The notes: generated by a model from the sequence alone, not told the origin. DNA of 30,314 nt from a virus (IMGVR_UViG_2675903650_000004:1-30314); one strand, 5' to 3'. Counted from the first letter of the stretch, positions 1 to 26,509 are shown. Numbers and translations are program-made.

Positions 1-309
1 ACTAAATCAGTAAGTTGGCAGCATCACCGGCACCTCGCTGTCGGATGCTTTTGCTCTTTGAGATTATCAAAGCGGCAGATATTCTTTCATCTTAAATTTT
101 ACGTCTTTGTTCTGACTGAAGTTCATCCTGTTCGGCTGCGAAATAAATACATCATTAATACATATGTTGTGATGATGTATTTTTATAAATTATTTCCCGC
201 ATGAATTTTAATAAATTTAATCTATTCCTTTATACGCAATACATTTACTTTCCTCTTTTGATGATCTTAAATGTCTCATTTTTCGTAATGTGTATAACAA
301 GGAATAGTG

Positions 310-825
310 ATGAAATTTAAAAAATGTCTTCTGCCTGTGGCAATGTTAGCGTCATTCACTCTGGCAGGATGCCAGTCAAATGCTGATGATCATGCCGCCG
401 ATGTTTATCAAACCGATCAACTGAATACCAAACAAGAAACTAAAACCGTTAATATTATTTCCATTCTTCCCGCAAAAGTTGCCGTAGACAACGCCCAAAA
501 TAAACGGAACGCACAAGCCTTCGGCGCGCTTATTGGCGCTGTCGCTGGCGGTGTTATCGGCCACAACGTCGGGTCTGGCAGCAATTCCGGAACGACGGCA
601 GGTGCAGTTGGCGGCGGAGCTGTAGGCGCGGCAGCGGGTTCGATGGTGAATGATAAAACCTTAGTGGAAGGTGTTTCTTTAACATATAAGGAAGGCACCA
701 AAGTGTATACCTCCACCCAGGTGGGTAAAGAGTGCCAGTTTACGACAGGTTTAGCCGTTGTTATTACCACGACGTATAACGAAACGCGTATTCAGCCAAA
801 TACCAAATGTCCTGAAAAGAGCTAA
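310..825 (+). CDS. exported lipoprotein with glycine-zipper (YcfJ-like) segment
   Basis: ORF 307..825; ATG at 310 preceded by AAGGAA; signal peptide ending in lipobox LAGC; Gly/Ala-rich GALIGAVAGGVIGHNVGSG stretch typical of Gly-zipper membrane proteins; very AT-rich upstream region. Confidence 0.8.
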   Translation: MKFKKCLLPVAMLASFTLAGCQSNADDHAADVYQTDQLNTKQETKTVNIISILPAKVAVDNAQNKRNAQAFGALIGAVAGGVIGHNVGSGSNSGTTAGAVGGGAVGAAAGSMVNDKTLVEGVSLTYKEGTKVYTSTQVGKECQFTTGLAVVITTTYNETRIQPNTKCPEKS

Positions 826-840
826 TAATCAGGAGGAGTC

Positions 841-1380
841 ATGAAGAAAGTTTTTCTTTGCGCCATCTTAGCCTCCTTAAGCTATCCGGCTATCGCCTCA
901 TCATTGCAGGATCAACTCTCGGCTGTCGCAGAAGCGGAACAGCAAGGTAAAAATGAAGAGCAAAGGCAGCATGACGAATGGGTCGCGGAGCGCAACAGGG
1001 AAATCCAGCAAGAGAAGCAACGTCGCGCAAACGCCCAGGCCGCGGCTAATAAAAGAGCGGCAACGGCAGCAGCGAATAAGAAAGCTCGTCAGGATAAACT
1101 GGACGCCGAAGCCACTGCGGACAAAAAACGCGATCAAAGTTATGAAGATGAGCTACGTAGCTTAGAGATTCAGAAACAAAAACTGGCGCTGGCGAAAGAA
1201 GAAGCCCGCGTCAAGCGCGAAAACGAATTTATCGATCAGGAACTGAAGCACAAAGCTGCGCAAACCGATGTGGTGCAATCTGAAGCTGACGCAAACAGAA
1301 ATATGACTGAAGGCGGTCGCGATCTGATGAAAAGCGTGGGCAAAGCAGAAGAGAACAAATCGGACAGCTGGTTTAATTAA
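841..1380 (+). CDS. secreted highly charged coiled-coil protein, unknown function
   Basis: Strong SD (AGGAGG) just upstream of ATG 841; N-terminal signal peptide; K/R/E/Q-rich low-complexity helical body; followed by hairpin terminator. Confidence 0.75.
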   Translation: MKKVFLCAILASLSYPAIASSLQDQLSAVAEAEQQGKNEEQRQHDEWVAERNREIQQEKQRRANAQAAANKRAATAAANKKARQDKLDAEATADKKRDQSYEDELRSLEIQKQKLALAKEEARVKRENEFIDQELKHKAAQTDVVQSEADANRNMTEGGRDLMKSVGKAEENKSDSWFN

Positions 1381-1416
1381 TCGATGTAAGTAACTTCAAG
1401 CCTATAATTCTTGAAG

Positions 1417-1450
1417 ATAAAAAACCCTCTGTAGTAACAGAGGGTTTTGT
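1417..1450. terminator. bidirectional intrinsic terminator
   Basis: A-run, stem CCCTCTG / CAGAGGG with 6-nt loop, then T-run; sits between convergent gene sets (841..1380 plus, lysis cassette minus). Confidence 0.6.
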
Positions 1451-1599
1451 TCATTCATAGTGCAGGGATCAAAATCATTCCCACTCAATTATTTACGATA
1501 ACCATAACCAATTGAGTGATAACATTTTTCCAAATCTCAATTTTTCCCGTACCGTTTTATATACCGTCACCGGAAATCAGTACCGTGAAAAATGCCATG

Positions 1600-2082
1600 C
1601 TATCTGGTCAGGGTGTCGTACTGTTTTTCGCAGACTCTTCCGGCTTCGGATGCCCGGTCAGCATACTCTGCCAGTTGTCTATTTCTCTCGAGAGATTTGC
1701 TGAACACGTCGGAAAGCAAAACTCCGGTGTCTGCGGCTGACGACCCAGCGCCGACAATGGCGTTATAGTGCCTGAGCTGCTCACGGATGGCAACGAGCTG
1801 TTGCTGCAACCGGCCAGCGCGAGCGGCAGCATCAAGAGCATCATTGCGCGCCTGGTCGATCCTCTGCTGCGCTTCACGTTCATTGATCGATTTCTCCTGT
1901 TCGTAGTGCTGACGAACTATCTCATCTTCAGCTTTGCGGTCTTTCTTCGCCTGCGCATACCCGGCATCGTACTGACGACTGCCGTGTGCATTCCAGGCTA
2001 CAACTCCTGATATGACCAGAACAGCAAGCATCGCCATGATAACCAACTGTTTCCAGTATGCTTTTGCGAATGCCCAGATCAT
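1600..2082 (-). CDS. Rz-like i-spanin (lysis protein)
   Basis: 160 aa, N-terminal TM helix then charged coiled-coil periplasmic domain; ATG overlaps endolysin stop (ATGA); last gene of lysis cassette. Confidence 0.8.
1608..1844 (-). CDS. Rz1-like o-spanin lipoprotein embedded in Rz in alternate frame
   Basis: ORF 1608..1883 in a different frame inside Rz; internal Met followed by signal peptide with lipobox LAGC and Pro/Ser-rich mature part; start codon choice uncertain (1844 or 1841). Confidence 0.45.
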   Translation of the reverse strand: MMLLMLPLALAGCSNSSLPSVSSSGTITPLSALGRQPQTPEFCFPTCSANLSREIDNWQSMLTGHPKPEESAKNSTTP

Positions 2083-2708
2083 ACCGCCAGCACCTTACTG
2101 GCAGTGATGTACCGCGCGCGCCGGTCGTCGATGCCGTTCCGGCCACCATTGATAATCAGAGTTACACGTGCAATATCGCCGGTATACTTCATGCATCCTT
2201 TGCTGGCGAAGAACCACGCCGCGCTACGAGCCGCATATTCGTCCTGCGCCAGCAGTTCAGGGCTCTCCAGCAGGTCAACCTTCAGGCCGTTTCCGCAATC
2301 ACGATAGTTATTCAAACCGGTAATCTGGATAAGTCCGCGCCCTCGGTAATTCCAGCCATCACCAGGGGCATTGTTCCCCATGCGTTTGCTGTACACCAGA
2401 TTGGCGATCGCACGCTGGCGCTCCAGAGGCAGAGACTTCTCATATGCTTTTCGTCCCAGCGTGCTGGCCTGGTCCGGCGTGATGCGTCCGGCACGGATAA
2501 ACCCGGACAGTCCATTAACGCTGTAGTTGAAGTTTTCCTGTAACCGGGTAAATCCTCCGGACTCATGCCCGACCTGCGCGATAAACATCGCCTGGTCATC
2601 TGGTTTGATAATGCCAAACTCATTCATGGCAGCAGTGATATGCAGAAACCAGCGTGCGGCCAGCGCCTCGCTAATACCAGCAGCTCGCTGGAATTGTTTA
2701 ATCTCCAT
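2079..2708 (-). CDS. endolysin, glycoside hydrolase family 19 (chitinase-like lysozyme)
   Basis: Start taken at [11 protein letters not shown] (ATG 2708), not the upstream extension of the ORF track; GH19-type endolysin signature ([10 protein letters not shown]...[12 protein letters not shown]...) recalled from Salmonella phage endolysins; overlaps holin stop. Confidence 0.88.
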
Positions 2709-3006
2709 GTTTAGACCTCGATACTTTGAAAATTTGAACGACGTTACCGCGCGTTTTAATAACCGCAGCGAGCATGACAGCGTTGATAATGACCTCAGAT
2801 AAATCCACAGCCATTGGCGTGCGTAACCAGATTGCATAGGCGACACGAACAGGAATACTGGCCGCAGCAACAATCAGGAAATAAGCAAGCCACCCTCCCC
2901 ATCTTCGGTGTTGTGACCCGTTACGCCGAAATGTGACAACGCGAATTGCTATGCCAGTACAAATAACTGCATTGGTGATAAGAAAAAAAAGCTCATACGT
3001 TGCCAT
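2698..3006 (-). CDS. holin-like small membrane protein
   Basis: 102 aa, 2-3 predicted TM helices, charged C-terminus; RBS GGGGAG 8 nt upstream; directly upstream of and overlapping the endolysin gene. Confidence 0.7.
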
Positions 3007-3397
3007 CGTCTTTTCTCCCCGGAATTAACTCACGTGGATTATCGGAACGGTGATAGAGCCAGATGCCAATTCGTACTGCGACGATTGCTGACACGAATGC
3101 GCCAGCAGAGAAAACAACCCCTTTCTCGAAAGAGTCCTGCGTGATAGTAGGGATCAGGCTAGCTACGCCTATAAGAATTGATGCTGCTGGTTTGTAGAAA
3201 AGAAGCCCACAGAGAAAGCTAAGCATCGACAAGAGTACGCGACGACTAATTGGGTACTCTACCGCAGAGGTAACAAAAATCACCGCTCCTGACAAAGACC
3301 CCAACGCTACTTCTGGAGGTACTCCTGCTATCACCGCAGCTAGAGAACCAAGACTAAGCCATTGATTTAATGTTTCACTGGTTAGTTGAACTGACAT
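2993..3397 (-). CDS. second holin/antiholin-like membrane protein
   Basis: ORF 2993..3406, about 4 hydrophobic helices; ATG at 3397 preferred over GTG 3406; first gene of lysis cassette after 400-nt untranslated region. Confidence 0.6.
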   Translation of the reverse strand: MSVQLTSETLNQWLSLGSLAAVIAGVPPEVALGSLSGAVIFVTSAVEYPISRRVLLSMLSFLCGLLFYKPAASILIGVASLIPTITQDSFEKGVVFSAGAFVSAIVAVRIGIWLYHRSDNPRELIPGRKDDGNV

Positions 3398-3812
3398 AGA
3401 AACCACCGTTTACTGTGCATAAAGACCCACCTTAGTTGGTGAGTCCATCATACACAATTAATACATATATGGTTTAATTGAAATCCCCAAAAACATTCTG
3501 AATAGGTGAGGTGTTTTCTGGCTCCATAGCTATGACGTGGCTTTTGATGCCTAACTTTATAAGGTGCCACGACAATGTGATAGGTACATAGGATTCAGTT
3601 ACCAATGCAAAGCTTTGTGTGTCTCAGTTTTGTCTCATGCCAACCCAGTAGAATCAATCTACTTAATCTCTCTGCAGTGAATATTTTGTTTGCACGCAAT
3701 TGCACATGATGAACTGGCGCTTATGATAATTTCTGACGGTGATCTGATGGGAGTGAAAGTGCGGCTATCTGATGATACAATGCTCTTCAAAATAAACAGT
3801 TAGGTGATTTTT

Positions 3813-4856
3813 ATGTTGGTCAAAGATGCGCTAAAAAGGGATAACAATAACCTTGACTTAATACGTATTTTTTGTGCAATTTCTGTAATATTTGCCCATT
3901 CATATTATCTTGCAAATTCTGATGGAGCCCAGGAGCCGGTTCAGTCTGTTTTCACATTTACATATACTGGTTCCATTGCTGTAAAAATATTTTTCTTTAT
4001 TAGCGGAATGCTTGTAACTAATAGTTTATTAACAACGCGAAACATACCACACTTTATTTCATCTAGATTTTTTAGAATATTCCCCGCATTCATTTTTGTT
4101 TTATTATTCGCGACATTCATTGTTGGACCATTACTTACAACGCATTCAATGACATCTTATTTAAAAGATACGCTGACGTACAGCTATCTATTTAAAAGCT
4201 CATATTTGGATATGCAATTTTTTCTTCCTGGTGTTTTTGAGGAAAATATATATAAAAGCTCAGTTAATGGTTCTTTATGGACAATACCATATGAAGTTGC
4301 ATCTTATGTCGTGCTCCTAGCATGCTACATGATAACTCAGAGCAGAGGAAGAATAATACCTAGCATCATATGCTTATCAATAATAGCGCTTCCAGTATTG
4401 GGATGGAACAAATTAATTTTTATAAATAACGATAATGCAGATGTGTTTTTAATGGCTCCATGCTTTGCTCTTGGCGCATTGTATGCTATAAACAAGGACA
4501 AAATATACATTTCACTACATGCACCAATAGGATTTGCAATATTATATAATTTTGTGTCAGAACCAACACTCAAGCATATGCTTTTTTATTTTTGCGCATG
4601 TACATTTTTCGTATATTTATCAACAACAAAAATAATAAAATCAATAAGAATAAAACATGATGTATCATATGGCGTTTACTTGTGGGGCTTTTTAATACAG
4701 CAGATAACATTCAGGTTATTACCTGATATAAATCTGTACTTAAATCAAGTTTTATGCATAGCACTATCACTTATTGCTGGACTGATATCATTTATTGCGA
4801 TAGAAAAACCAGCAATGGATATTGGGAAAAAGATATCAAACAAATTCAGATATTAG
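3813..4856 (+). CDS. acyltransferase family 3 membrane protein (O-antigen O-acetyltransferase-like, Oac/OafA type)
   Basis: ORF 3804..4856; ATG 3813 with RBS AGGTGA 5 nt upstream; about 10 TM helices; N-terminal NNxxDxxRxxxAxxVxxxH motif of Acyl_transf_3; very AT-rich codon usage unlike neighbours. Confidence 0.85.
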   Translation: MLVKDALKRDNNNLDLIRIFCAISVIFAHSYYLANSDGAQEPVQSVFTFTYTGSIAVKIFFFISGMLVTNSLLTTRNIPHFISSRFFRIFPAFIFVLLFATFIVGPLLTTHSMTSYLKDTLTYSYLFKSSYLDMQFFLPGVFEENIYKSSVNGSLWTIPYEVASYVVLLACYMITQSRGRIIPSIICLSIIALPVLGWNKLIFINNDNADVFLMAPCFALGALYAINKDKIYISLHAPIGFAILYNFVSEPTLKHMLFYFCACTFFVYLSTTKIIKSIRIKHDVSYGVYLWGFLIQQITFRLLPDINLYLNQVLCIALSLIAGLISFIAIEKPAMDIGKKISNKFRY

Positions 4857-4859
4857 ATA

Positions 4860-4886
4860 AAAAGGGGCTTTCAGCCCCTTTTTTTA
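4860..4886. terminator. bidirectional intrinsic terminator between convergent acyltransferase and tailspike genes
   Basis: Stem AGGGGCT / AGCCCCT with 3-nt loop, A-run upstream and T-run downstream (coordinates approximate). Confidence 0.7.
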
Positions 4887-6986
4887 CGTGGTAGTTGCGG
4901 ATACCTTCCATTCACCAGTTGATACGTATGTCCACTTCCACGGTCCGGTAGAAACCGGACCAAGCAATTCCCACTTGGTGCCAAACGGGAAATTAGTTGT
5001 ATCTCCCGTGGGTGGTGATACTGATAGAACCGTTATATATCCTGACTCAAGTCTGCATAATGCAGTCCATGATGAGTTTCCGGTTATACTATAGGTGCCG
5101 CCTGAATCAACCTTGTTGATCCAGCTCTGCCCACTCCCCCATCTAATAGAATCAGTGGTGTTGTCGGGAATTACCGCACCATTAAAATTTGCAGTTGCAT
5201 CATTAAGATATATGTATTTGCTAGATGAGACTCCAGAGTAACCAGAAAAATGAGATGAAACCAATGAGATGAAACACGATTCCAGAGATACAGCTTCAAC
5301 TCCTCCATCATGATGATTAACCCCTCTAAATGCAGTTACGTTAATTCGACTACCATTTATATCAAATATTTTACCAGTGCCTTCTTCGCTTCCGCATCCA
5401 GATAGATTTACTCCAGTACAATCTTTAAATTTATAGCCAGTACCATTAACGAAGTCAGCAGCCAAACAAGTCAGGCTGCTATATGTAATGTTATTAAAAT
5501 CATATGCAACACCTGAACATGTTTTCACATAAATATTGTTTAAATTATATGTGGTTCCACCTGCTTCGATTTTAACTCCAGTAACGACATCCTGAATAGT
5601 AATGTTTTCCCATGTCTGCAACCAGCTATCACTAGTGCGATAACCGGTTTTCACCCTATGAATATACAGGTCCTGAAGGCGCACATTGTAACTGATAGCG
5701 CTATATATCCCGTAATCACAAGGATTGGGCGCAGTATTTAGAATACTCAATCCAATTATTCTGGTGCTTCTTGTTTGTTTCCCGCTTAAATCACCTGATG
5801 TGTCACTATCCATATCTACCGCAACAATAAAGTCTTTGGAGAAGCTGTGTGGTACACCCTGCCACATGCGATCCGGAACGGTTTTAATATCGTTACCTGT
5901 TTTAATTAATCCACAGGAATCCATACCGCACCCCTCCAGCGTGACACGTGGAGGCACGATAGCGCCATACTTAATATCGTAAAATCCATTGAGTCTGAGC
6001 GTACCTCCTTCATATGGAAGGCATGCAGTCAGGCGTTCAAAGGCTTCACTGTTTTGCTCAGCCGTACATGATGTCATCATGCCACCGTTCTCTACCGGAA
6101 TATCGATGTGGCTTCCAGCTCTCTTCCATCGCTTACCGCCGGGGGTAACAAAAATATTCACACCATCGTCAGCTTCAGAACTGTCAAACGACATGAACAC
6201 CCCACCTCCAAGACCGGGGGTATCGCTATAATAACCTCTGACAATAATTTGCTGGTTTACTGACGAAGGTTCAGTATTTCTTAATGTGGCCACATCAGGG
6301 CAGGAACCGATATTTTTAAACCCATCGGTGGCAGCAAGCTGCAACATGACATCAGTAGCGCTCCCAGATTCCGGGAGAACCATGATTGGGTCTCCTGAAT
6401 CATCCATTGCAACAATCTTATTCTTACGTTGCTCAACGCCGGGCAAAGTTGATATCGGTTCGGGAGTTCGTAGCGTTCTGCTCAGGTTTGTTTCTGCAAG
6501 CCCGTCAACATAATTTTTCGTTGCTGCATCTTGCGGCCTAGATGGGTCACGAAGATTACGAATATAGTTATTCATCGCGTCGTAATAATTAGCCACGAAC
6601 GACGGCTTTCGTAGCGCCAGACTGAACCAATTTCGAACCTGCTGGATCAGCATCGTTAGCTTATCAAAAGCGTTCTCATGCACTTCTGCAAAGAACTTAC
6701 CCTGATTACGCAAATCAGTTTCCTGCGTAACCGGTAGCTCTCGATATATAGAAATCAGATAACCGTTAGCCAACACCTTCGACAGAATTACATTACCACC
6801 GTTATATCCTCCCGCCCCGGTAACTGTGTAATCAGTATCAAGAGCAAGAACAGTGATATTTTCATCAAGGTCAACCACTTGTACTACCAGATCAGATTTC
6901 TGGAAAATCCTGAAGGTATACGGAAATGATGTCGTAACACCGTTACCTGTGTATTCGTTGTGGTCAACTTCGGTTGAGACCGTCAT
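4884..6986 (-). CDS. tailspike / tail fibre with T7 gp17-like N-terminal anchor and beta-helix-like receptor-binding body
   Basis: 700 aa; N-terminal about 150 aa match the conserved podovirus tail-fibre anchor pattern (YTGNGVTTSFPYTF...DYTV) as remembered for T7 gp17; remainder rich in G/S/T/N beta-strand repeats typical of polysaccharide-binding or depolymerase tailspikes. Confidence 0.85.
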   Translation of the reverse strand: MTVSTEVDHNEYTGNGVTTSFPYTFRIFQKSDLVVQVVDLDENITVLALDTDYTVTGAGGYNGGNVILSKVLANGYLISIYRELPVTQETDLRNQGKFFAEVHENAFDKLTMLIQQVRNWFSLALRKPSFVANYYDAMNNYIRNLRDPSRPQDAATKNYVDGLAETNLSRTLRTPEPISTLPGVEQRKNKIVAMDDSGDPIMVLPESGSATDVMLQLAATDGFKNIGSCPDVATLRNTEPSSVNQQIIVRGYYSDTPGLGGGVFMSFDSSEADDGVNIFVTPGGKRWKRAGSHIDIPVENGGMMTSCTAEQNSEAFERLTACLPYEGGTLRLNGFYDIKYGAIVPPRVTLEGCGMDSCGLIKTGNDIKTVPDRMWQGVPHSFSKDFIVAVDMDSDTSGDLSGKQTRSTRIIGLSILNTAPNPCDYGIYSAISYNVRLQDLYIHRVKTGYRTSDSWLQTWENITIQDVVTGVKIEAGGTTYNLNNIYVKTCSGVAYDFNNITYSSLTCLAADFVNGTGYKFKDCTGVNLSGCGSEEGTGKIFDINGSRINVTAFRGVNHHDGGVEAVSLESCFISLVSSHFSGYSGVSSSKYIYLNDATANFNGAVIPDNTTDSIRWGSGQSWINKVDSGGTYSITGNSSWTALCRLESGYITVLSVSPPTGDTTNFPFGTKWELLGPVSTGPWKWTYVSTGEWKVSATTT

Positions 6987-7162: not shown

Positions 7163-7181
7163 ATTGCATGGAGAAGATAAG

Positions 7182-7439
7182 ATGCAGCAGTATCACTATC
7201 CACTGGAAGACGGATTTACCGAAAGGATTCACACGCCGGGAGGCGTCAGATTACTGGTGGAGGGATCGCTCTTGATGAAATTACTCCGGGATCTCGATAA
7301 GGATGGATTTAATGTCGATGGCCCACTTGCCGAACTGACTGCACTGATTAACTACGTCACCAGCTCACAGATGTCTATGCAGGATCTGCAAACACATCTC
7401 GACTATTGTGCCGAACAATTACGAAAACAAACCAGATAA
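7182..7439 (+). CDS. small protein paralogous to the C-terminal domain of the downstream antirepressor (candidate SOS-induced antirepressor)
   Basis: ORF 7164..7439 (TTG) with ATG at 7182 and GGAG RBS; residues GGVRLLVEGSLLMKLLRDLDKDGFNVDGPLAELTALINYV...DLQTHLDYCAEQL align by eye with the C-terminus of ORF 7755..8465. Confidence 0.6.
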   Translation: MQQYHYPLEDGFTERIHTPGGVRLLVEGSLLMKLLRDLDKDGFNVDGPLAELTALINYVTSSQMSMQDLQTHLDYCAEQLRKQTR

Positions 7440-7485: not shown

Positions 7486-7598
7486 ATTTACATCGCACTC
7501 CTCTTGTGCCATAGTAATCGGGTACTGGCAAAATCCAGTGCCGGGATTGGCGTCCCGAGTTACTAAGTGGCGCATACCACGCCAGACGTGGTTTTTTT
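7486..7598 (+). ncRNA. candidate structured leader or small RNA ending at an intrinsic terminator upstream of ant
   Basis: No ORF with RBS; several local hairpins (ACTGG/CCAGT, CGGGA/TCCCG); terminator ACCACG-CCAGA-CGTGGT followed by T7 at about 7576..7598. Confidence 0.3.
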
Positions 7599-7754
7599 AT
7601 GCGTTAAGCACAGCCATATCCGAATTATGGTGGGCTGGGCAGGGGTCCGAAAGGACGCCGGTACCACTTAGGCCGGTACGCCAACCTTGTCCAGTTCACC
7701 ACCAGTAATTGGCGTTGCGGTGGTGATTAAAATCACTAAGTGGAGATAACCACC

Positions 7755-8465
7755 ATGGCTAATGCTCAAACTGCCATCTTCAAATTTGAATCTGTTAACC
7801 CTATCCGTTCCATCATTATCGATGGCCAACCATGGTTTGTAGCCCAAGACGTTTGTAGTGCGCTGCGTATCCAAAACGTCACCCAATCACTTGAAAAACT
7901 GGATGATGATGAAAGGTCTATGTTCAACATAGGGCATGAACATCGTGCAATTTTTGACAGCCGAGTAAAAGAGATCAACATCATCTCCGAGTCAGGCCTC
8001 TACACACTGATCCTCCGCTGCCGCGATGCGGTGACACCAGGCACTATCCCCTACCGCTTTCGTAAATGGGTTACAGGTGAGGTTCTTCCTCAGATCCGCC
8101 GCACCGGAAGTTACATTAAAAACTCGCTCCCGCAGGAAGAACGCATAAAGATGGTTGCCGACCAGGTAGCCAACGCCACGGCGTCAGCAGTAATACAGGC
8201 AATGAAGATAGAGAACAAAACCTACAGTGCCCCACTGAAGCCCGGCTACCGCAGCCTGATTCACTCGCCGTCTGGTGTTCTCGGCCTGACGGAGAACTCA
8301 CTGCTGATGAATCTGCTGAACCAGTTACAGGAAGACGGGCATGACGTATCGGGCGCGGCGGCGGAACTGACCACCATGTTCTGCTACATCGTCGGTGTGA
8401 GTAAATGCCTGCGTGATATCCAGACCCACGCGGAATACATCAACGACAAGGCAGGATTCTTCTGA
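7755..8465 (+). CDS. phage antirepressor (Bro-N / Ant N-terminal domain plus C-terminal domain)
   Basis: ORF 7740..8465 (GTG); ATG 7755 with GGAG 9 nt upstream; Bro-N-type signature FKFESVNPIRSIIIDGQPWFVAQDVCSALRI. Confidence 0.85.
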   Translation: MANAQTAIFKFESVNPIRSIIIDGQPWFVAQDVCSALRIQNVTQSLEKLDDDERSMFNIGHEHRAIFDSRVKEINIISESGLYTLILRCRDAVTPGTIPYRFRKWVTGEVLPQIRRTGSYIKNSLPQEERIKMVADQVANATASAVIQAMKIENKTYSAPLKPGYRSLIHSPSGVLGLTENSLLMNLLNQLQEDGHDVSGAAAELTTMFCYIVGVSKCLRDIQTHAEYINDKAGFF

Positions 8466-8612: not shown

Positions 8613-8792
8613 ATGCGAAACGAAAAATTGCAGATGCGTAGAGCGCAAGCTGCCGCAAGACGTTCTTTCAATGGAAGCGTAGAGTACGTAAAAGTTACTA
8701 TGACAAAAGATCACGCAAGTCGCGTATCCCGCGCTTTCTTTGATTCTCGTAACAATAAGGAAAATTATGAGTTCGTCTGCGTCGCAGAATGA
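8613..8792 (+). CDS. hypothetical 59-aa basic protein (candidate antitoxin or regulator)
   Basis: Not in ORF track (below length cut-off); ATG 8613 with GAGG 7 nt upstream; translation MRNEKLQMRRAQAAARRSF...; 3' end overlaps start of ORF 8767 by 26 nt. Confidence 0.35.
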   Translation: MRNEKLQMRRAQAAARRSFNGSVEYVKVTMTKDHASRVSRAFFDSRNNKENYEFVCVAE

Positions 8793-9312
8793 TAAAAATC
8801 AAATTGTCAGATATAAGGGTCGAGTATTGCATACGCAAAATTTCTCGGCCCTTTGTGCATCTGATCTTGAGCTGAAGAAAGTATCTGATGCCTTTACCCA
8901 GTATTGGAAAACGGGATACCATCCATCTCTTGGTAAAGATGCTGCATTTGCTCGTCCGACAGAAATGCTTAAACTAAATGTCAGGCATACTCATGTCGAT
9001 AACCAAGACTATATTCCAGAAGATAGTGATAAAAAACACACTGGTAAAAAATCATCTTGGGATGCATGGAAAAATATAGCGTCTGTACAAGTAAAATGCA
9101 TACCAACAAGTGATTGCTTTTTAGTTTATTCGGTAAATCACAATCGTGATGCGCTGGTTATGTTTTTTGTTGACGCAGATGCTCACAACATAACTGAGCA
9201 AGAAGAGTTTAAAGAGGCAGCAATCACTATCAGTTATCAATTCTTTGAGAAAACAAAAACAGAACCAATGCCTTTAGAAGAAGATCTTTTTTCTGATAAA
9301 TGGAAGGAATAG
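8767..9312 (+). CDS. hypothetical protein with YafO-like toxin motif (candidate toxin or abortive-infection effector)
   Basis: ORF 8740..9312 (TTG); ATG 8767 with AAGGA RBS; central G[KR]DA...RP...H.H.. and LVY...D.D.H pattern resembles YafO-family toxins as recalled from memory; AT-rich; own promoter/operator upstream and terminator downstream. Confidence 0.7.
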   Translation: MSSSASQNDKNQIVRYKGRVLHTQNFSALCASDLELKKVSDAFTQYWKTGYHPSLGKDAAFARPTEMLKLNVRHTHVDNQDYIPEDSDKKHTGKKSSWDAWKNIASVQVKCIPTSDCFLVYSVNHNRDALVMFFVDADAHNITEQEEFKEAAITISYQFFEKTKTEPMPLEEDLFSDKWKE

Positions 9313-10027: not shown

Positions 10028-12502
10028 TTATTGCGGAGTGACATCCTGAGGTCGCCACCAGTATGTCTGGTTAAACTCTTTCTTTGAACGTTGCTCCATT
10101 TTACGCAAATAGCCTGGTGAAAAATACTCCTGCATCTGGTTAAAGATCATGTGATCGAGAGCCGCCTTCAAATACCAGAGATTCGCACCAGGCATCAAAC
10201 CTTTCCCAAGCTTAACCAAATCACCACCAGTCTGCTCATTCTTCCCTTCCACAGCATTTAACGGTATACCCTGAGCAATCTTCACTACGTCATCAACCAG
10301 ACCAGCTACCGGGCCAAGCATCGACGCTAGTGCGCCGCTCCCGTACCTGGTGTGGTCAGAGAAAAGAAAATCACCATACAACCCTGCCCCACCACCTTTT
10401 AAAAATGCATTTATCCAGAATTTAACCATGTTGTCACCGGTCATTTCTTTTGGATTTCTCCCATTAATAAGATCAGTAATCTGCATGGAAAGAGCACCAA
10501 GCATGGTTGTGCTTGCTAAAAACGTTGCTATATATGCCGCACGCCCACCAGCAGACGGCATCCCCATAGCTCTATGCCAGTGACGCATAACTACCGAGAT
10601 AGGGAACGATTTAAACAGGAAAACACTTCTCGTTAATTCACCTTTCCATGTTCCACGCTGAAGACCAGACCCTACGAACATCTGTTCACGTGCGCCCGGT
10701 GTAATAACAGCCATATCAACTTCTTCAGTTACGGCACCGAGCAGTTTACGCATTGCCTCAAATTTCACACGTTCAGGCTCACCAAGATGTTTAACTGCTG
10801 AATCAGGGATACGCATAATGCTTTCCGGTGTCAGCATCGTATTATTACCGTTCCCCCAGTCCTCCTGTTGCGCCAGCTTCCATACGCTCCAGTCTGTGTC
10901 AGTAATCCCTTTGCTTTTCAGGATACGAAAATCAGAGTCATCGAGGCTACGAAGGTCTGGTGTCCGTGACACTACTTCTCCCAGGCTTCCCATCATGGTT
11001 ACGCCATAAGCGCGCTTGTGCGCATCTGACCATGCTGTAAGTCCACTGGCACGCATTACCGCCGTTGCCGCCCAACGAGACACAGACGGCCCCATATTAT
11101 CCATCGCCCAGCGGTTAACGCTGCCAAGTAGAGATTCCATCGCCAGACCAGCGCGGCGCGCCCGCGCAAGCTCAGTACGGTTCGTTGGGTCCATAGCTTC
11201 AAGCTGGTTGCGGAATAACTGGTTCATTGGAAGGTTGGTAACCTTCGCAGACAGATATATGGTTCCAAGATCAGAGAACGATGACAGCAACGCGGATCCG
11301 AGCCTGCTGGCAACCAGCCAGTTTCTGATATTGTCAGACCAGCGCGCGATGTGAGGATTCGCAACAGGCTGTGTCTTTCCGGAAATAAAGTTGTACAGGT
11401 TCTCTGTTTTGTTCGCCAGCCGCTCGACGCTACCGGTTTTACTCGGGTTAGCTGTTGCCGTTTCTGCCTTCACCTGATCAAGAAGAGAGCGGAAAACATG
11501 ATCAGGGTTTGGGCCATATGTTTCCACCAGTGCAATATCTTTACTGATACCTTCCAGGTGACCGACCATGATTTCCCATAGAGAGCGATCGCCATAAAGT
11601 TGCTGATATTGCAGATAGGAATCTGCATCTTTGAAATGTATCTGTCGTGATGCATTACCACGGTTAGCACGTGCGCCGGAAATTCGCATTCCGGTATCAG
11701 TAAGCTTATTCAGCCCACCAGTAGCGATCGTGTTATAAGCCTCTCCAAGAAATGCAGACAACTCGGCATCGTTCATCAGTTGTCCATCGGCTCGGATATA
11801 ATATTTGCGATCCAGCTTACCTATAACATCGCTAACCCACTTATCCTTTGATACCGCCCCAACCTTTTCCATAGAATGATGTTGAGGGATTCCCCAGTTT
11901 TCGAGATAGCCAATGTCCCCACCAGCATCATTAAACCGGCGGCGCAGTAGATCTGTCACTTCTCTCCACGCCTTAGCACCTTTTCTTGCTTTAGCATTGC
12001 CAGTATTTTGCCCTCGCATTTCATATACCAGGTCACGCACGCCAGCTTCATCTTCAAACAGGCCAAAAAAGCGAGGATCAACTGCTTCAAATGCCTCTTG
12101 CAATTGACTCAATGCATAATCACGAGTGGCTTTTGTTCTGGACTCAACAGAGAGAAAATTCGATTTACCGTCTGCATTAAAAGCAATAGTACGGTTAAGA
12201 GCGCCGAGTTTCCCATCAGCCCCTTGATAGCTATTGATAAATTTATCCAATCTCTGACGTGCGGCTATAGTGAGGGCCACACGACGTTTCTTTAATGCCG
12301 CTTCTCGCTGTAATTCTTCAGATGCCAATTGTGCTGCACGATATAGCCGCTCTGATTCGGAAAGTTGTCTCCACGACATCGGGTCATCACGAGCAATGGA
12401 GCGCATATTTCGATAAATGCGGTCTTCAATGTTCTGTATTTCTCGCGCCGTTAACGTGCGCTGCGCCGCCTGCTGGACCGCTTGTATACATTCCTGTCTC
12501 AT
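10028..12502 (-). CDS. internal virion / DNA-ejection protein (large)
   Basis: 824 aa, tightly packed in late operon after other core proteins; position and size as in podovirus ejection proteins. Confidence 0.8.
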   Translation of the reverse strand: MRQECIQAVQQAAQRTLTAREIQNIEDRIYRNMRSIARDDPMSWRQLSESERLYRAAQLASEELQREAALKKRRVALTIAARQRLDKFINSYQGADGKLGALNRTIAFNADGKSNFLSVESRTKATRDYALSQLQEAFEAVDPRFFGLFEDEAGVRDLVYEMRGQNTGNAKARKGAKAWREVTDLLRRRFNDAGGDIGYLENWGIPQHHSMEKVGAVSKDKWVSDVIGKLDRKYYIRADGQLMNDAELSAFLGEAYNTIATGGLNKLTDTGMRISGARANRGNASRQIHFKDADSYLQYQQLYGDRSLWEIMVGHLEGISKDIALVETYGPNPDHVFRSLLDQVKAETATANPSKTGSVERLANKTENLYNFISGKTQPVANPHIARWSDNIRNWLVASRLGSALLSSFSDLGTIYLSAKVTNLPMNQLFRNQLEAMDPTNRTELARARRAGLAMESLLGSVNRWAMDNMGPSVSRWAATAVMRASGLTAWSDAHKRAYGVTMMGSLGEVVSRTPDLRSLDDSDFRILKSKGITDTDWSVWKLAQQEDWGNGNNTMLTPESIMRIPDSAVKHLGEPERVKFEAMRKLLGAVTEEVDMAVITPGAREQMFVGSGLQRGTWKGELTRSVFLFKSFPISVVMRHWHRAMGMPSAGGRAAYIATFLASTTMLGALSMQITDLINGRNPKEMTGDNMVKFWINAFLKGGGAGLYGDFLFSDHTRYGSGALASMLGPVAGLVDDVVKIAQGIPLNAVEGKNEQTGGDLVKLGKGLMPGANLWYLKAALDHMIFNQMQEYFSPGYLRKMEQRSKKEFNQTYWWRPQDVTPQ

Positions 12503-12507
12503 TTAAT

Positions 12508-14310
12508 TTAACCTCTCAAGAAACACGCCACAGCGACATCAAACAGGCTGGAATCCTGTATTGCCTGCTCACTTTCCCTGTTCGCTTCATCCAGTACTTC
12601 ACGCGCGCTGCGCGATTGTGGATTACCATCATCATCCAGCACGGTGATTATCATGTCAGGTGATTCAAGCAACGAGTCTTCAGCTATGCGCAGATCAATA
12701 TCTCCTGCCTGATCCGCCATCATTTTTTGTTCTGCCTGTTGCAATATTTTATCAGGCTCAAAAGGAGCTACTTCGTCTGGCGTCCTGACCTCTGCTGTTT
12801 TATAGAATGAAACAGCCTGAGCATTAAGTTCACTTTCTACCTGCAGTCGCCGTGCCAGTTCTGCTCGAGCTTCAAAAAACTGACCTCCATGCTCGTGCGG
12901 CGCCAACGCGTTACGGGAAAATTCCAGGCGTTCTTGTGCCTGCCGGATTCGTTGGTCAATATCGCGAATTCTGGCCTGTTTATCTGATCGAGCACGAGAC
13001 AAAGCTTTACCGCTACCAGTTGGCTCTTCTGCAAGAATTTGTGCGCGCTGTTCAGTGAGATTGTCGAGAATTCGTTGGCTATTAGCGATTTCAGACTGGT
13101 AAACCTGTCTATCGCCACGCGGCAAAAGCTGCGCAGCCTGTTCTTCAAGCAACCGATTTTCGATAGCGCGCGCCGTTACTCCATCATCTACAGATGACAG
13201 AGCCTCATTAACTGCCTGAGACAGCAGATTCTTGCGCCCAGGAATTTCACTGAAAGATGCAGACTCAACAATGCTGGCAACGTCTACAGGTCTCCCCTGG
13301 CTAACAGCAGACATAGCTTTTCGCAGAGCCTGAATGTGAGAATTGCGCGAAAGCACGTTGATCGGCACGCCGGGAGCAATATCAATTTCAGCATGATGAG
13401 CGGCATTCGCCGCCAGTGCAGCATCGATATCAACTGGTGAAAAGTTTGGTGCGTTTGTAGACTCGCCGCGAGAGTTAATAAATCTGCCGACTCCACCAAA
13501 AGCCACCCCAAGAACAGCATCAATAGCAATTGCCTGTCGATCCAACACATCATACTGGTTAGCCATTTCGCTATAGCCACCATCACGAAGCGTTTTTGCA
13601 GTAAGCCCGCGCTGTGCCATACCGAACGCAATATTTGTACCTGCGGCATAGGCAATATCTGGCGTTGCACGTACTGCTGTTGCCGCGGCGCGTCGCACTG
13701 AACTTTCACCCGTCCGCGCAAGCTGAGCCGCCACACCTTCCGCTAGCGCACCACCAGCACGTAACCCGAGACTCATAGGGATCAGTGTTCCGGCACCAGC
13801 AGTAATACCCTGCACTAATCCCGCTTCCTGCGCCGTCCTGAAATCAACCCCCTGAGCTGTCAGTCGTTCAAACTCAGAAAAACCCTGTAGCGAAGTTACC
13901 GCCGCAGCACCTCCGACCGGACCACCGAGCGTTGTACCGACAACAGCCTGCCCGCCCATATCGAACAACCCATAAAGAACCTGCCCTGCGGTTCCGGTTG
14001 TCGCGGCATCAGGCGTCAGCCGCTTAACCTGCTGCTCTGCTAGTTTTCTCTGCTCGGCAATGTATGAAACTGAAGTGTCATTGAGCGAGGTGTTTTCGTT
14101 AACAAACTGAGCAATCGGGGATACGATTTTATCCATCCCTGCCCATAGCAACTGATCTGGCTTTGCCACCAGCCCGGAGTACAAACCAGACAATGCCGCT
14201 CCTACAGCATTGTCGAAAAAACCAACATCGCTGTTAAAGCCAGCTGGATTTGATGCTGCTTCGTCAAGCTGCTGATTCTGGTTTACTGGATTAAGGCCAA
14301 AGTAACTCAT
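12508..14310 (-). CDS. internal virion / DNA-ejection protein
   Basis: 600 aa, Gly/Ala-rich segments; overlaps upstream gene by 4 nt. Confidence 0.8.
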   Translation of the reverse strand: MSYFGLNPVNQNQQLDEAASNPAGFNSDVGFFDNAVGAALSGLYSGLVAKPDQLLWAGMDKIVSPIAQFVNENTSLNDTSVSYIAEQRKLAEQQVKRLTPDAATTGTAGQVLYGLFDMGGQAVVGTTLGGPVGGAAAVTSLQGFSEFERLTAQGVDFRTAQEAGLVQGITAGAGTLIPMSLGLRAGGALAEGVAAQLARTGESSVRRAAATAVRATPDIAYAAGTNIAFGMAQRGLTAKTLRDGGYSEMANQYDVLDRQAIAIDAVLGVAFGGVGRFINSRGESTNAPNFSPVDIDAALAANAAHHAEIDIAPGVPINVLSRNSHIQALRKAMSAVSQGRPVDVASIVESASFSEIPGRKNLLSQAVNEALSSVDDGVTARAIENRLLEEQAAQLLPRGDRQVYQSEIANSQRILDNLTEQRAQILAEEPTGSGKALSRARSDKQARIRDIDQRIRQAQERLEFSRNALAPHEHGGQFFEARAELARRLQVESELNAQAVSFYKTAEVRTPDEVAPFEPDKILQQAEQKMMADQAGDIDLRIAEDSLLESPDMIITVLDDDGNPQSRSAREVLDEANRESEQAIQDSSLFDVAVACFLRG

Positions 14311-26432: not shown

Positions 26433-26509
26433 GTGGCATTAGCTCAGTTGGACAGAGCAACCGCCTTCTAAGCGGTTGGTCGCAGGTTCGAATCCTGCAT
26501 GCCACGCCA
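26433..26509 (+). tRNA. tRNA-Arg (anticodon UCU)
   Basis: Cloverleaf read by eye: acceptor GTGGCAT/ATGCCAC, D-arm GCTC-AGTTGGAC-AGAGC, anticodon stem ACCGC/GCGGT with loop CTTCTAA, T-arm GCAGG-TTCGAAT-CCTGC, 3' discriminator G + CCA. Confidence 0.85.

What the first reader, a model, noticed from the sequence alone, without database searches (positions are those of the whole stretch)
3813..6986. Likely serotype-conversion pair: AT-rich O-antigen acyltransferase convergent with the tailspike
An Acyl_transf_3 membrane protein with strongly AT-biased composition sits on the opposite strand immediately downstream of the tailspike, sharing a bidirectional terminator. In epsilon15/phiV10-type and P22/Sf6-type phages such acyltransferases modify the O-antigen that the tailspike itself recognises. 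This would be lysogenic conversion and receptor masking against superinfection.
Basis: partly seen in the sequence, partly recalled or inferred. Interest (0 to 1): 0.5.

Follow-up and report, generated by a model that had tools for sequence, protein, structure and literature searches.

The report
Prophage O-antigen acetylase–tailspike cassette
A phiV10-like prophage of E. coli carries a tailspike gene and, next to it, a membrane acetyltransferase that probably alters the same surface sugar the tailspike binds; this is a well-known phage trick, seen here in a new, uncharacterised version most likely aimed at the O107/O117 O-antigen.

Summary
An AT3 acyltransferase gene (3813-4856, +; 31.8% GC against 50% for the rest of the prophage) converges on a 700-aa tailspike gene (4884-6986, -). 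The 27-nt gap between them is almost entirely a hairpin that folds on both strands.

The window is a Uetakevirus (phiV10-like) prophage at yfgI in E. coli. It has the same gene order as phiV10, whose oac is annotated as acetylating the host O-antigen and giving superinfection immunity.

The gene here is not the phiV10 oac orthologue. It sits in a 2.6-kb cassette (3602-6224: promoter region, oac, terminator, tailspike receptor-binding domain). That cassette is 98.3% identical to one in a P22-like prophage of E. coli VE-T9.

All 4 complete E. coli genomes carrying this receptor-binding-domain family are O107/O117. In them the same slot holds this AT3, an unrelated AT3, or gtrABC.

The tailspike model is a parallel beta-helix. 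The AT3 keeps most motifs shown to be critical in Sf6 Oac.

This is a new member of a known kind, of modest interest.

The parts
3602..6224 (.). Mosaic 'recognition + modification' cassette: oac upstream region, oac, terminator and the tailspike receptor-binding domain, shared as one block with a P22-like prophage
   Evidence: 98.3% nt identity over 2,624 bp to E. coli VE-T9 (L001 9001-11624), where it lies between intS and a P22-type head-binding domain. Uetakevirus backbone homology stops at about 3470-3529 on the left and resumes at 6267 on the right.
3602..3645 (.). Left boundary sequence of the cassette, a remnant of a Lederbergvirus int-proximal region
   Evidence: 37-44 bp match (86-97%) to the sequence just downstream of the integrase in phage JEP4 (Lederbergvirus) and the P22-like prophages of VE-T9 and PSS-08-1; phage HZ41 gives the same 37-bp match but its context was not examined.
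3646..3812 (+). Upstream region of oac with candidate sigma-70 promoters (3701-3730; 3753-3781 with an extended -10) and the AGGTGA ribosome-binding site at 3802-3807
   Evidence: The promoter count in the region is not above shuffles, so these are candidates only. The region travels with the cassette.
3813..4856 (+). AT3-only integral-membrane acyltransferase (347 aa), predicted O-antigen O-acetyltransferase
   Evidence: Pfam PF01757 1.1e-25; PHROG 3333; AF2 model pLDDT 94.2, all-helical; conserved H29, FFFISG 60-65, R85/R88 + F90-P91, NGSLWT 152-157, SYG 285-287; 31.8% GC.
4859..4883 (.). Bidirectional intrinsic terminator hairpin shared by oac and the tailspike gene
   Evidence: -15.2 and -15.7 kcal/mol on the two strands, z = -3.7 and -4.4; 100% conserved in VE-T9.
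4884..6341 (-). Tailspike receptor-binding domain (aa 216-700), parallel beta-helix, predicted O107/O117 O-antigen-specific
   Evidence: 95% aa identity to the VE-T9 P22-type tailspike C-terminus. AF2 block-mean pLDDT is 72-98 from about residue 221 (132 of 700 residues fall below 50, nearly all in the anchor); stacked short beta strands at 409-556. Foldseek hits AS12 gp42, CBA120 TSP2, K2 depolymerases and Sf6 TSP. The RBD family is found only in O107/O117 genomes. Invariant D356, D385, D391, D393, D511, E534.
6342..6986 (-). Tailspike N-terminal anchor (aa 1-215), Uetakevirus type
   Evidence: The alignment to the phiV10 tail fibre is 71% identical over aa 1-322, strongest in the first ~215 residues. 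It is 85% identical to L018 over aa 1-221. PDB sequence match to the Dpo31/Dpo36 tailspike (28lx, 28mg) and the Carin-1 phage tail fibre assembly (8ck1), residues 1-231 (E=2.7e-26).

Best explanation
This is a lysogenic-conversion and receptor-masking pair in a phiV10-like (Uetakevirus) prophage of E. coli.

The virion tailspike has a genus-specific N-terminal anchor (aa 1-215) joined to a beta-helix receptor-binding domain (aa 216-700). That domain most probably binds, and probably cleaves, the O107/O117 O-antigen.

The convergent, AT-rich gene encodes an AT3-only membrane acyltransferase. It has its own upstream region and shares a bidirectional terminator, so it is set up to be expressed from the prophage independently of the late operon.

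By analogy with Sf6 Oac and phiV10 Oac, it would carry an acetyl group from cytoplasmic acetyl-CoA across the inner membrane onto a sugar of the O-unit. The lysogen's O-antigen would then no longer be a good substrate for this tailspike, excluding superinfection and avoiding loss of progeny on lysogen debris. Its serological epitope would also change.

Shown here: the gene identities, composition, terminator, synteny, movement of oac and the RBD as one block, and the association of the RBD family with O107/O117 genomes.

Inferred: the acetyl donor, the acceptor sugar, expression in the lysogen, glycanase activity, and the masking effect.
For: - Synteny. The order is the same as in phiV10, where oac is annotated as acetylating the O-antigen and giving superinfection immunity (PMC9558356; PMC11854483 abstract). 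Sf6 has the same oac/terminator/tailspike convergence.
- Enzyme family. Pfam AT3 and PHROG O-acetyltransferase. Sf6 Oac is the nearest characterised relative. The family-invariant set R18, S64-G65, R85, R88, P91, N152, W156, E161, S285-Y286-G287 and near-invariant H29 is present. These map onto Sf6 Oac critical residues SG52-53, R73, R76, FP78-79, the GS/WT motif and SYG274-276 (PMC3467182). The model is confident and all-helical (pLDDT 94.2), and its only non-trivial PDB fold match is the transmembrane acetyl-CoA transferase HGSNAT (TM about 0.42-0.46, weak E-value).
- Linkage. oac and the RBD are one 2.6-kb block, 98.3% identical in a different phage genus. The relatives of this AT3 at 50-56% identity also converge on tailspike genes in Uetakevirus, P22-like and a third backbone; for P0005 the neighbour is an ORF I extracted from an unannotated gap.
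- Receptor. 20 of 5,426 complete E. coli genomes carry the O107/O117 wzy. 4 of 5,426 carry the RBD family, and all 4 are among those 20. The hypergeometric probability is 1.3e-10, or 4.3e-8 if the two identical remnants are counted once.
- Slot logic. With homologous RBDs in O107/O117 strains, the tailspike-adjacent slot holds this AT3 (window, VE-T9), an unrelated AT3 (APEC-O117H42; tailspike 71% identical, AT3 23%), or gtrA-gtrB-DUF6056 (PSS-08-1, GZ2408P). Other Uetakeviruses have acetylase-annotated genes in the same slot (PAS61, TL-2011b, Tyrion).
- Tailspike fold. A beta-helix like the O-antigen and capsule depolymerases, with invariant carboxylates down to 28% identity.
Against: - There is no chemical or phenotypic evidence.
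- The O117 O-unit is described as a plain linear pentasaccharide (PMC4273275), and I found no report of an O-acetylated O107/O117 form. The type strains may simply lack this prophage.
- The serogroup of the window's own host was not determined; it is inferred from VE-T9 and the 4-of-4 association.
- AT3 substrate cannot be read from sequence. Identity to Sf6 Oac is 32% over half the protein, and identity to phiV10 Oac is negligible.
- The pairing is not obligate. A homologous RBD occurs with a different AT3 or with gtr genes. The 53%-identical AT3 of Salmonella Veneziana sits beside an unrelated RBD.
- The promoter candidates are no more frequent than in shuffled sequence.
Confidence: 0.75

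Rival explanations
1. The AT3 modifies the O-antigen, but its selected benefit is not exclusion of its own phage type. Instead it protects against other O-antigen-dependent phages, or helps immune or serum evasion and colonisation fitness. Self-masking would be partial or incidental.
For: - Lysogens with the identical Oac include one whose tailspike has two frameshifts (L004) and one whose prophage is truncated at tailspike codon 75 (L005). So oac is retained where the phage is dead, although these loci were selected by exact Oac sequence.
- PSS-08-1 and GZ2408P keep only int-gtrABC-tailspike.
- The same RBD family co-occurs with three different modifiers.
- A 56%-identical RBD exists in lytic Kutterviruses, which would also be affected.
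Against: This does not exclude the main explanation. In the two tested precedents (Sf6, phiV10) the modification does block the phage's own tailspike. Physical linkage to the matching RBD is most simply explained by self-directed masking.
Confidence: 0.3
2. The AT3 acylates a different envelope glycan (enterobacterial common antigen, colanic acid or capsule, LPS core, peptidoglycan) and is merely a moron that landed beside the tailspike.
For: AT3 proteins act on many substrates (PMC9558356). The best phage hit by score is annotated ExoZ. Database names are generic, such as 'peptidoglycan/LPS O-acetylase OafA/YrhL'. There was no NCBIfam equivalog.
Against: The gene repeatedly converges on tailspike genes in three backbones. 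It is transferred together with an RBD. In prophages with a homologous RBD, the same slot holds gtrABC, which is specific for O-antigen glucosylation. The slot is homologous to the experimentally characterised phiV10 and Sf6 oac positions.
Confidence: 0.1
3. The gene is a silent or decaying passenger, either not expressed or inactive, and the pair has no current function.
For: It is AT-rich foreign DNA, which H-NS often silences (general knowledge). The promoter scan was not above chance.
Against: The exact 347-aa sequence is found on 372 contigs, and the 90% cluster has 127 members. The ORF is intact with its catalytic motifs conserved. It is 99% identical to the VE-T9 copy in another phage genus. 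It has a good ribosome-binding site and a strong terminator.
Confidence: 0.05

Closest known systems
phiV10 Oac / tail fibre pair (Escherichia phage phiV10, Uetakevirus; Perry et al. 2009)
   Same: Same phage genus and backbone (95% nt). Same slot between the holin genes and the tail fibre gene, same convergent orientation, AT3-only protein of similar size (338 vs 347 aa). The phiV10 oac is annotated and reviewed as acetylating the O157 antigen and conferring immunity.
   Different: It is not orthologous: 31% identity over 65 aa. The tailspike RBD is unrelated beyond aa ~320. The predicted target is O107/O117 rather than O157.
Sf6 Oac / tailspike (Shigella phage Sf6, Lederbergvirus)
   Same: The int-oac(+)-terminator-tailspike(-) architecture is identical to that of the VE-T9 copy of this cassette. 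Sf6 Oac is the nearest characterised AT3 homologue, and the motifs SG, RxxR+FP, GS/WT and SYG are shared. The tailspike is a beta-helix.
   Different: Only 26% global identity. Sf6 residues R75, RK110-111, GR269-270 and PV283-284 are not conserved. The O-antigen and RBD are different. Here the cassette sits in a Uetakevirus backbone.
gtrABC O-antigen glucosylation modules of P22-like prophages (P22, SfX/SfV, KpLE1) and GtrC/OafB of BTP1
   Same: Same genomic logic: an O-antigen modifier placed next to int and the tailspike. It is found here with a homologous RBD in PSS-08-1 and GZ2408P. BTP1 OafB acetylation protects against the BTP1 tailspike.
   Different: Different chemistry and proteins: a three-gene glucosylation system, or an AT3-SGNH fusion, rather than a single AT3-only enzyme.
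O-antigen-specific tailspike RBP subtypes exchanged between Lederberg- and Uetakeviruses (Pas et al. 2023, PMC10408124)
   Same: A conserved genus-specific anchor plus a horizontally exchanged RBD that clusters by serogroup. The anchor/RBD junction is at about aa 205-216.
   Different: O107/O117 is not among the 14 serogroups for which that study assigned RBP subtypes. That study noted only that sequence downstream of the RBP gene is dissimilar. Here the downstream modifier is shown to travel with the RBD.

Membership tests
Acyltransferase-3 (AT3, Pfam PF01757) membrane O-acyltransferases | Significant match to the PF01757 domain over most of its length | tested here: met
   E=1.1e-25, 90.8 bits (cutoff 31), residues 15-327 against profile positions 2-318 of 326.
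Acyltransferase-3 (AT3, Pfam PF01757) membrane O-acyltransferases | Polytopic, roughly 10-helix integral membrane fold | tested here: met
   The AF2 model has pLDDT 94.2 and pTM 0.92 and is all-helical, with about 10-11 long helices. A hydropathy scan finds hydrophobic spans throughout. The only non-trivial PDB fold match is HGSNAT, and it is weak (TMq 0.42-0.46, prob 0.5-0.8, E about 0.5).
Acyltransferase-3 (AT3, Pfam PF01757) membrane O-acyltransferases | Conserved TM1 histidine and the RxxR motif with a following FP; SG motif in TM2 | tested here: met
   H29, S64-G65, R85-x-x-R88 and F90-P91 are invariant or nearly so in 60 homologues and align to Sf6 Oac SG52-53, R73, R76 and FP78-79.
Phage serotype-converting O-antigen acetylases (Sf6 Oac, phiV10 Oac type) | AT3-only protein (no fused SGNH domain) encoded by a temperate phage next to its tailspike/tail fibre gene | tested here: met
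   347 aa with a single AT3 domain. It is convergent with the tailspike gene and shares a terminator. Synteny matches phiV10 and Sf6.
Phage serotype-converting O-antigen acetylases (Sf6 Oac, phiV10 Oac type) | Orthology (close sequence relationship) to a characterised Oac | tested here: not met
   31% identity over 65 aa to phiV10 Oac. 32% over the N-terminal 46% to Sf6 Oac, and 26% globally. It is homologous at family level only.
Phage serotype-converting O-antigen acetylases (Sf6 Oac, phiV10 Oac type) | O-acetylation of the lysogen's O-antigen, with loss of adsorption or cleavage by the cognate tailspike | not testable with these tools
   This needs LPS NMR/MS and adsorption assays. Indirect support comes from co-transfer with the RBD and from alternative O-antigen modifiers in the same slot.
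O-antigen-specific beta-helix tailspikes (P22/Sf6/HK620/CBA120 TSP type) | N-terminal genus-specific anchor plus a C-terminal right-handed parallel beta-helix | tested here: met
   The alignment to phiV10 is 71% identical over aa 1-322. The body has block-mean pLDDT 72-98 with stacked short strands. Foldseek E values of 3e-16 to 1e-6 to AS12 gp42, CBA120 TSP2/TSP4, K2 depolymerases and Sf6 TSP.
O-antigen-specific beta-helix tailspikes (P22/Sf6/HK620/CBA120 TSP type) | Specificity for a defined O-serogroup | tested here: inconclusive
   All 4 complete genomes with the RBD family are O107/O117 (p about 1e-10). This is association only, and the window's own host was not typed.
O-antigen-specific beta-helix tailspikes (P22/Sf6/HK620/CBA120 TSP type) | Glycanase active site (a pair of catalytic carboxylates) | tested here: inconclusive
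   D356, D385, D391, D393, D511 and E534 are invariant in 12 family members down to 28% identity. No trimer model, no ligand and no assay are available.
Uetakevirus (epsilon15/phiV10-like) prophage | Collinear nucleotide homology to phiV10 across structural and lysis genes | tested here: met
   95-96% identity over 76% of window 1-25000 to phiV10 and HEMP4, with the gaps at the cassette. It is integrated beside yfgI, as in other E. coli lysogens.

The most novel reading that the evidence does not exclude
oac and the tailspike RBD form a self-contained, mobile 'recognise-and-mask' module. It recombines as one unit between unrelated podovirus genera, between a conserved int-proximal boundary sequence and the conserved cap at the start of the tailspike beta-helix.

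Its carriage on several hundred E. coli contigs would then define an unrecognised O-acetylated subtype of the O107/O117 antigen. Two further prophage-encoded subtypes (a second AT3 and gtrABC) would exist in the same serogroup. That would be a Shigella-flexneri-like serotype diversification not yet described for this E. coli serogroup.
Probability: 0.45. Interest if true: 0.45.

Novelty: new member of a known kind. Interest (0 to 1): 0.3.

Why it matters
If correct, many E. coli isolates typed genetically as O107/O117 would display a prophage-modified O-antigen: acetylated by one of two different AT3 enzymes, or glucosylated. This would affect serotyping, the match of glycoconjugate vaccines, and the host range of O-antigen-dependent phages and tailspike-based diagnostics.

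It also gives a clean example of the receptor-binding domain and the gene that masks that receptor being inherited as one recombination unit across phage genera. That is useful for predicting phage-host pairs from prophage sequence. The principle itself has been established since Sf6, epsilon15 and phiV10.

Tried and rejected
- Terminator scan. The generic scan missed the obvious hairpin, so I folded it directly.
- NCBIfam. No model matched either protein, the alternative AT3, or the DUF6056 protein.
- PDB sequence search for the AT3. No hits. Foldseek gave only a weak HGSNAT match, so the fold assignment rests mainly on Pfam and the AF2 model.
- Strict co-divergence of AT3 and RBD. This was only partly seen. 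Window and VE-T9 agree (99% / 95%). L011 and L015 agree (AT3 53%, RBD 39-52%). The window RBD has no detectable similarity to the L011, L015 or L018 RBDs even though their AT3s are 50-55% identical. I therefore rejected the idea that this AT3 clade tracks a single RBD lineage.
- Host serogroup of the window's lineage, three attempts:
  - A literature search for the assembly accessions found nothing.
  - BLAST of 7.7 kb of host flank from a near-identical lysogen (L007) matched dozens of complete genomes of varied serogroups at or near 100%, including one O107/O117 strain, so it was uninformative.
  - I chose not to spend a whole-database search on Wzy, because the contig look-up collapses places with similar neighbours and would probably not show the needed assemblies.
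- O107/O117 structure papers (Wang 2009, 2012). These are not held. The Liu 2019 review has no held supplements.
- Origin of the window. I considered Shigella because no complete RefSeq E. coli genome has the phiV10-type copy. I rejected this: source names for the exact proteins are all E. coli.
Full report
**1. What is in the sequence**

Window 3813-4856 (+) encodes a 347-aa protein. The mechanical ORF opens at GTG 3804, but ATG 3813 follows an AGGTGA ribosome-binding site and is the start annotated for the 99%-identical VE-T9 protein.

It matches Pfam Acyl_transf_3 nearly end to end (E=1.1e-25) and PHROG 3333 'O-acetyltransferase'.

Window 4884-6986 (-) encodes a 700-aa tail protein (PHROG 1640, E=2e-152).

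The stop codons are 27 nt apart. Positions 4859-4883 form a GC-rich hairpin with U-tracts on both strands. It folds to -15.2 and -15.7 kcal/mol, and none of 200 shuffles does as well.

oac is 31.8% GC, against 50.1% for the prophage outside the cassette. The RBD half of the tailspike is intermediate at 43%.

**2. Genomic setting**

The window is the left part of a Uetakevirus (epsilon15/phiV10-like) prophage.
- Host genes yfgH and yfgI occupy 307-1380.
- From about 1473 the sequence is 95-96% identical to phages phiV10, HEMP4, phiv142-3 and PAS61, except around the cassette.
- The order on the minus strand is tailspike, [oac on the plus strand], two holins, GH19 endolysin, Rz/Rz1.
- phiV10 has exactly this order, and its oac is annotated 'acetylates the host O-antigen; functions in superinfection immunity'.
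- The AT3 review PMC9558356 summarises the same finding for phiV10 and for Sf6 Oac. The abstract of PMC11854483 restates it for phiV10.
- Sf6 itself has int-oac(+)-terminator-tailspike(-).

**3. Not the phiV10 gene**

The window AT3 aligns to phiV10 Oac only over 65 residues, at 31% identity. The tailspikes are similar only over the first ~320 residues.

DNA comparison defines a mosaic.
- Uetakevirus backbone homology ends at about 3470-3529 and resumes at 6267.
- Positions 3602-6224 are 98.3% identical to a segment of E. coli VE-T9.
- In VE-T9 this segment lies in a P22-like prophage at tRNA-Arg/intS. The same Oac (99% aa) converges on a tailspike with a P22-type head-binding domain and the same C-terminal 485 residues (95% aa).
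- The first 37-44 bp of the block (3602-3645) match the sequence just downstream of the integrase in phage JEP4 (Lederbergvirus) and in the P22-like prophage of PSS-08-1. Phage HZ41 has the same 37-bp match, but I did not inspect its context. This suggests the cassette came from a P22-like int|oac|tailspike region.
- The right junction falls in the conserved stretch at the start of the beta-helix module. Dozens of otherwise unrelated tailspike clusters match only the first 75-110 residues of the 485-aa query. The exchange of RBDs between Lederberg- and Uetakeviruses is already described (PMC10408124).

**4. The acyltransferase**

The family is large but carries only generic names (864 hits at E<=1e-10).

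The exact sequence occurs on 372 contigs, all named E. coli by their sources. No sequenced phage has a close copy: the best hits are below 30% identity over the full length. Sf6 Oac is the nearest characterised relative, at 32% over the N-terminal half.

In a 60-sequence alignment, R18, F60-F62, S64, G65, R85, R88, P91, N152, W156, E161, D283, S285-Y286-G287 and E331 are invariant, and H29 is nearly so.

Mapped onto Sf6 Oac, the following residues reported as critical (PMC3467182) are conserved: SG52-53, R73, R76, FP78-79, the GS/WT motif, SYG274-276 and F282. R75, RK110-111, GR269-270 and PV283-284 are not conserved.

The AF2 model is confident (pLDDT 94.2) and all-helical. Its only non-trivial PDB match is human HGSNAT, a transmembrane acetyl-CoA-dependent acetyltransferase, and that match is weak.

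The protein looks like a functional AT3. Its substrate cannot be read from sequence.

**5. The tailspike**

AF2 gives block-mean pLDDT of 72-98 from about residue 221. The N-terminal anchor and coiled region are poorly modelled as a monomer.

Foldseek finds parallel beta-helix tailspike depolymerases: AS12 gp42 (E=3e-16), CBA120 TSP2, K2 depolymerases and Sf6 TSP.

The RBD family is small, with 14 clusters at E<=1e-30 among 1.8 billion representatives. It includes a 56%-identical tailspike in Salmonella phages STML-13-1, BRM 13313 and pSC20, which have ~157-kb genomes (Kuttervirus by my own knowledge).

Six carboxylates (D356, D385, D391, D393, D511, E534) are invariant down to 28% identity. 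This fits a glycanase but does not prove one.

**6. Which O-antigen**

VE-T9 carries the O107/O117 wzx/wzy cluster.

Among 5,426 complete E. coli genomes, 20 have this wzy and 4 have DNA similar to the RBD. All 4 are among the 20. The hypergeometric probability is 1.3e-10, or 4.3e-8 if the two identical remnants are counted once.

This ties the RBD family to O107/O117 by association. The window's own host could not be typed from the data available. The O107/O117 assignment for this window is therefore an inference.

**7. The slot holds interchangeable O-antigen modifiers**

In the four O107/O117 genomes the tailspike-adjacent position contains one of three things:
- this AT3 (VE-T9);
- an unrelated 322-aa AT3 (APEC-O117H42). 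That strain has a phiV10-like prophage at the same yfgI site, with a tailspike 71% identical over its full length and an AT3 only 23% identical;
- gtrA-gtrB-DUF6056 (PSS-08-1 and GZ2408P), where the prophage is reduced to int, gtr and tailspike.

Other Uetakeviruses carry different genes annotated as acetylases in the same slot: PAS61 on O146 (a 618-aa 'O-antigen acetylase') and TL-2011b on O103.

The relatives of this AT3 at 50-56% identity each lie convergent to a tailspike in Uetakevirus, P22-like and a third prophage type. For P0005 the neighbouring tailspike is an ORF I extracted from an unannotated gap.

This recurrent, modular arrangement is the strongest computational support for a functional link between the modifier and the tailspike's receptor.

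**8. Limits and rivals**

- No O-acetylated O107/O117 structure turned up. O117 is described as a plain linear pentasaccharide of GalNAc, Glc, Gal and Rha (literature search).
- The pairing is not obligate.
- Some lysogens with an intact, identical Oac have a dead tailspike or a truncated prophage (L004, L005). This hints that oac benefits the host beyond self-exclusion. These loci were, however, retrieved by exact Oac sequence, so Oac intactness is built into the sample.
- Action on another glycan, or silence of the gene, cannot be excluded but is disfavoured by the context.

**9. Verdict**

The system is a new, uncharacterised member of the known Sf6/phiV10 class of serotype-converting acetylase-tailspike pairs.

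What this analysis adds:
- the acetylase is a non-orthologous replacement of phiV10 oac;
- it travels with the RBD as one cassette between phage genera;
- the likely target is the O107/O117 antigen;
- three alternative prophage modifiers are seen with this RBD family.

Interest is modest.

Noticed in passing
window 7522-7706 (+), upstream of 7740-8465 (+): Rfam finds isrK (7522-7598, 63.5 bits) and C4 antisense RNA (7623-7706, 66 bits) directly upstream of the Bro-N antirepressor gene. This looks like a P1/P7-type immI (c4/ant) anti-immunity module in a Uetakevirus prophage.
   Followed up: no
window 7164-7439 (+): A 91-aa ORF matches PHROG 450, the same family that matches the C-terminal ~80 residues of the downstream Ant protein (7740-8465). 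It appears to be a stand-alone copy of the antirepressor C-domain. phiV10 has a similar small ORF here.
   Followed up: no
window 8740-9312 (+): A 190-aa ORF with a marginal YafO-toxin Pfam match (E=1.2e-5, 25.8 bits against a cutoff of 25) and PHROG 1651. It may be a prophage-borne toxin; no antitoxin partner was identified.
   Followed up: no
window 26433-26509 (+): A prophage-encoded tRNA-Arg (anticodon TCT).
   Followed up: no
window 3602-3645: A short boundary sequence at the left edge of the cassette is shared with the int-downstream region of P22-like phages and prophages (JEP4, VE-T9, PSS-08-1; HZ41 gives the same match but its context was not examined). It may be a recombination junction, and it is a clue that the cassette was imported from a Lederbergvirus.
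   Followed up: partly
L004 (CP061272.1) 11075-13172; L005 (JBTZQQ010000001.1) 11076-12953: In lysogens encoding the identical Oac, the tailspike gene has two frameshifts (L004), or the prophage is deleted from tailspike codon 75 onward and abuts lambdoid genes (L005). So oac persists in defective prophages.
   Followed up: partly
L024 (PSS-08-1) 173-6235; L028 (GZ2408P) 173-6235: At argW, a P22-like prophage is reduced to just intS-gtrA-gtrB-DUF6056-tailspike, followed directly by host dsdX/dsdA. Only the O-antigen modification genes and the tailspike remain, and the remnant is identical in a human isolate and a pigeon isolate.
   Followed up: partly
window 1608-1883 (-) within 1600-2082 (-): An Rz1-like lipoprotein ORF (signal ...LALAGC) is embedded out of frame in the Rz (DUF2514) gene, as annotated in phiV10.
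   Followed up: no
window 307-1380 (+): The host genes yfgH (glycine-zipper lipoprotein) and yfgI (DUF5384) flank the prophage end. The same yfgI-proximal site is used by other phiV10-like prophages carrying different cassettes (L018, L022).
   Followed up: partly
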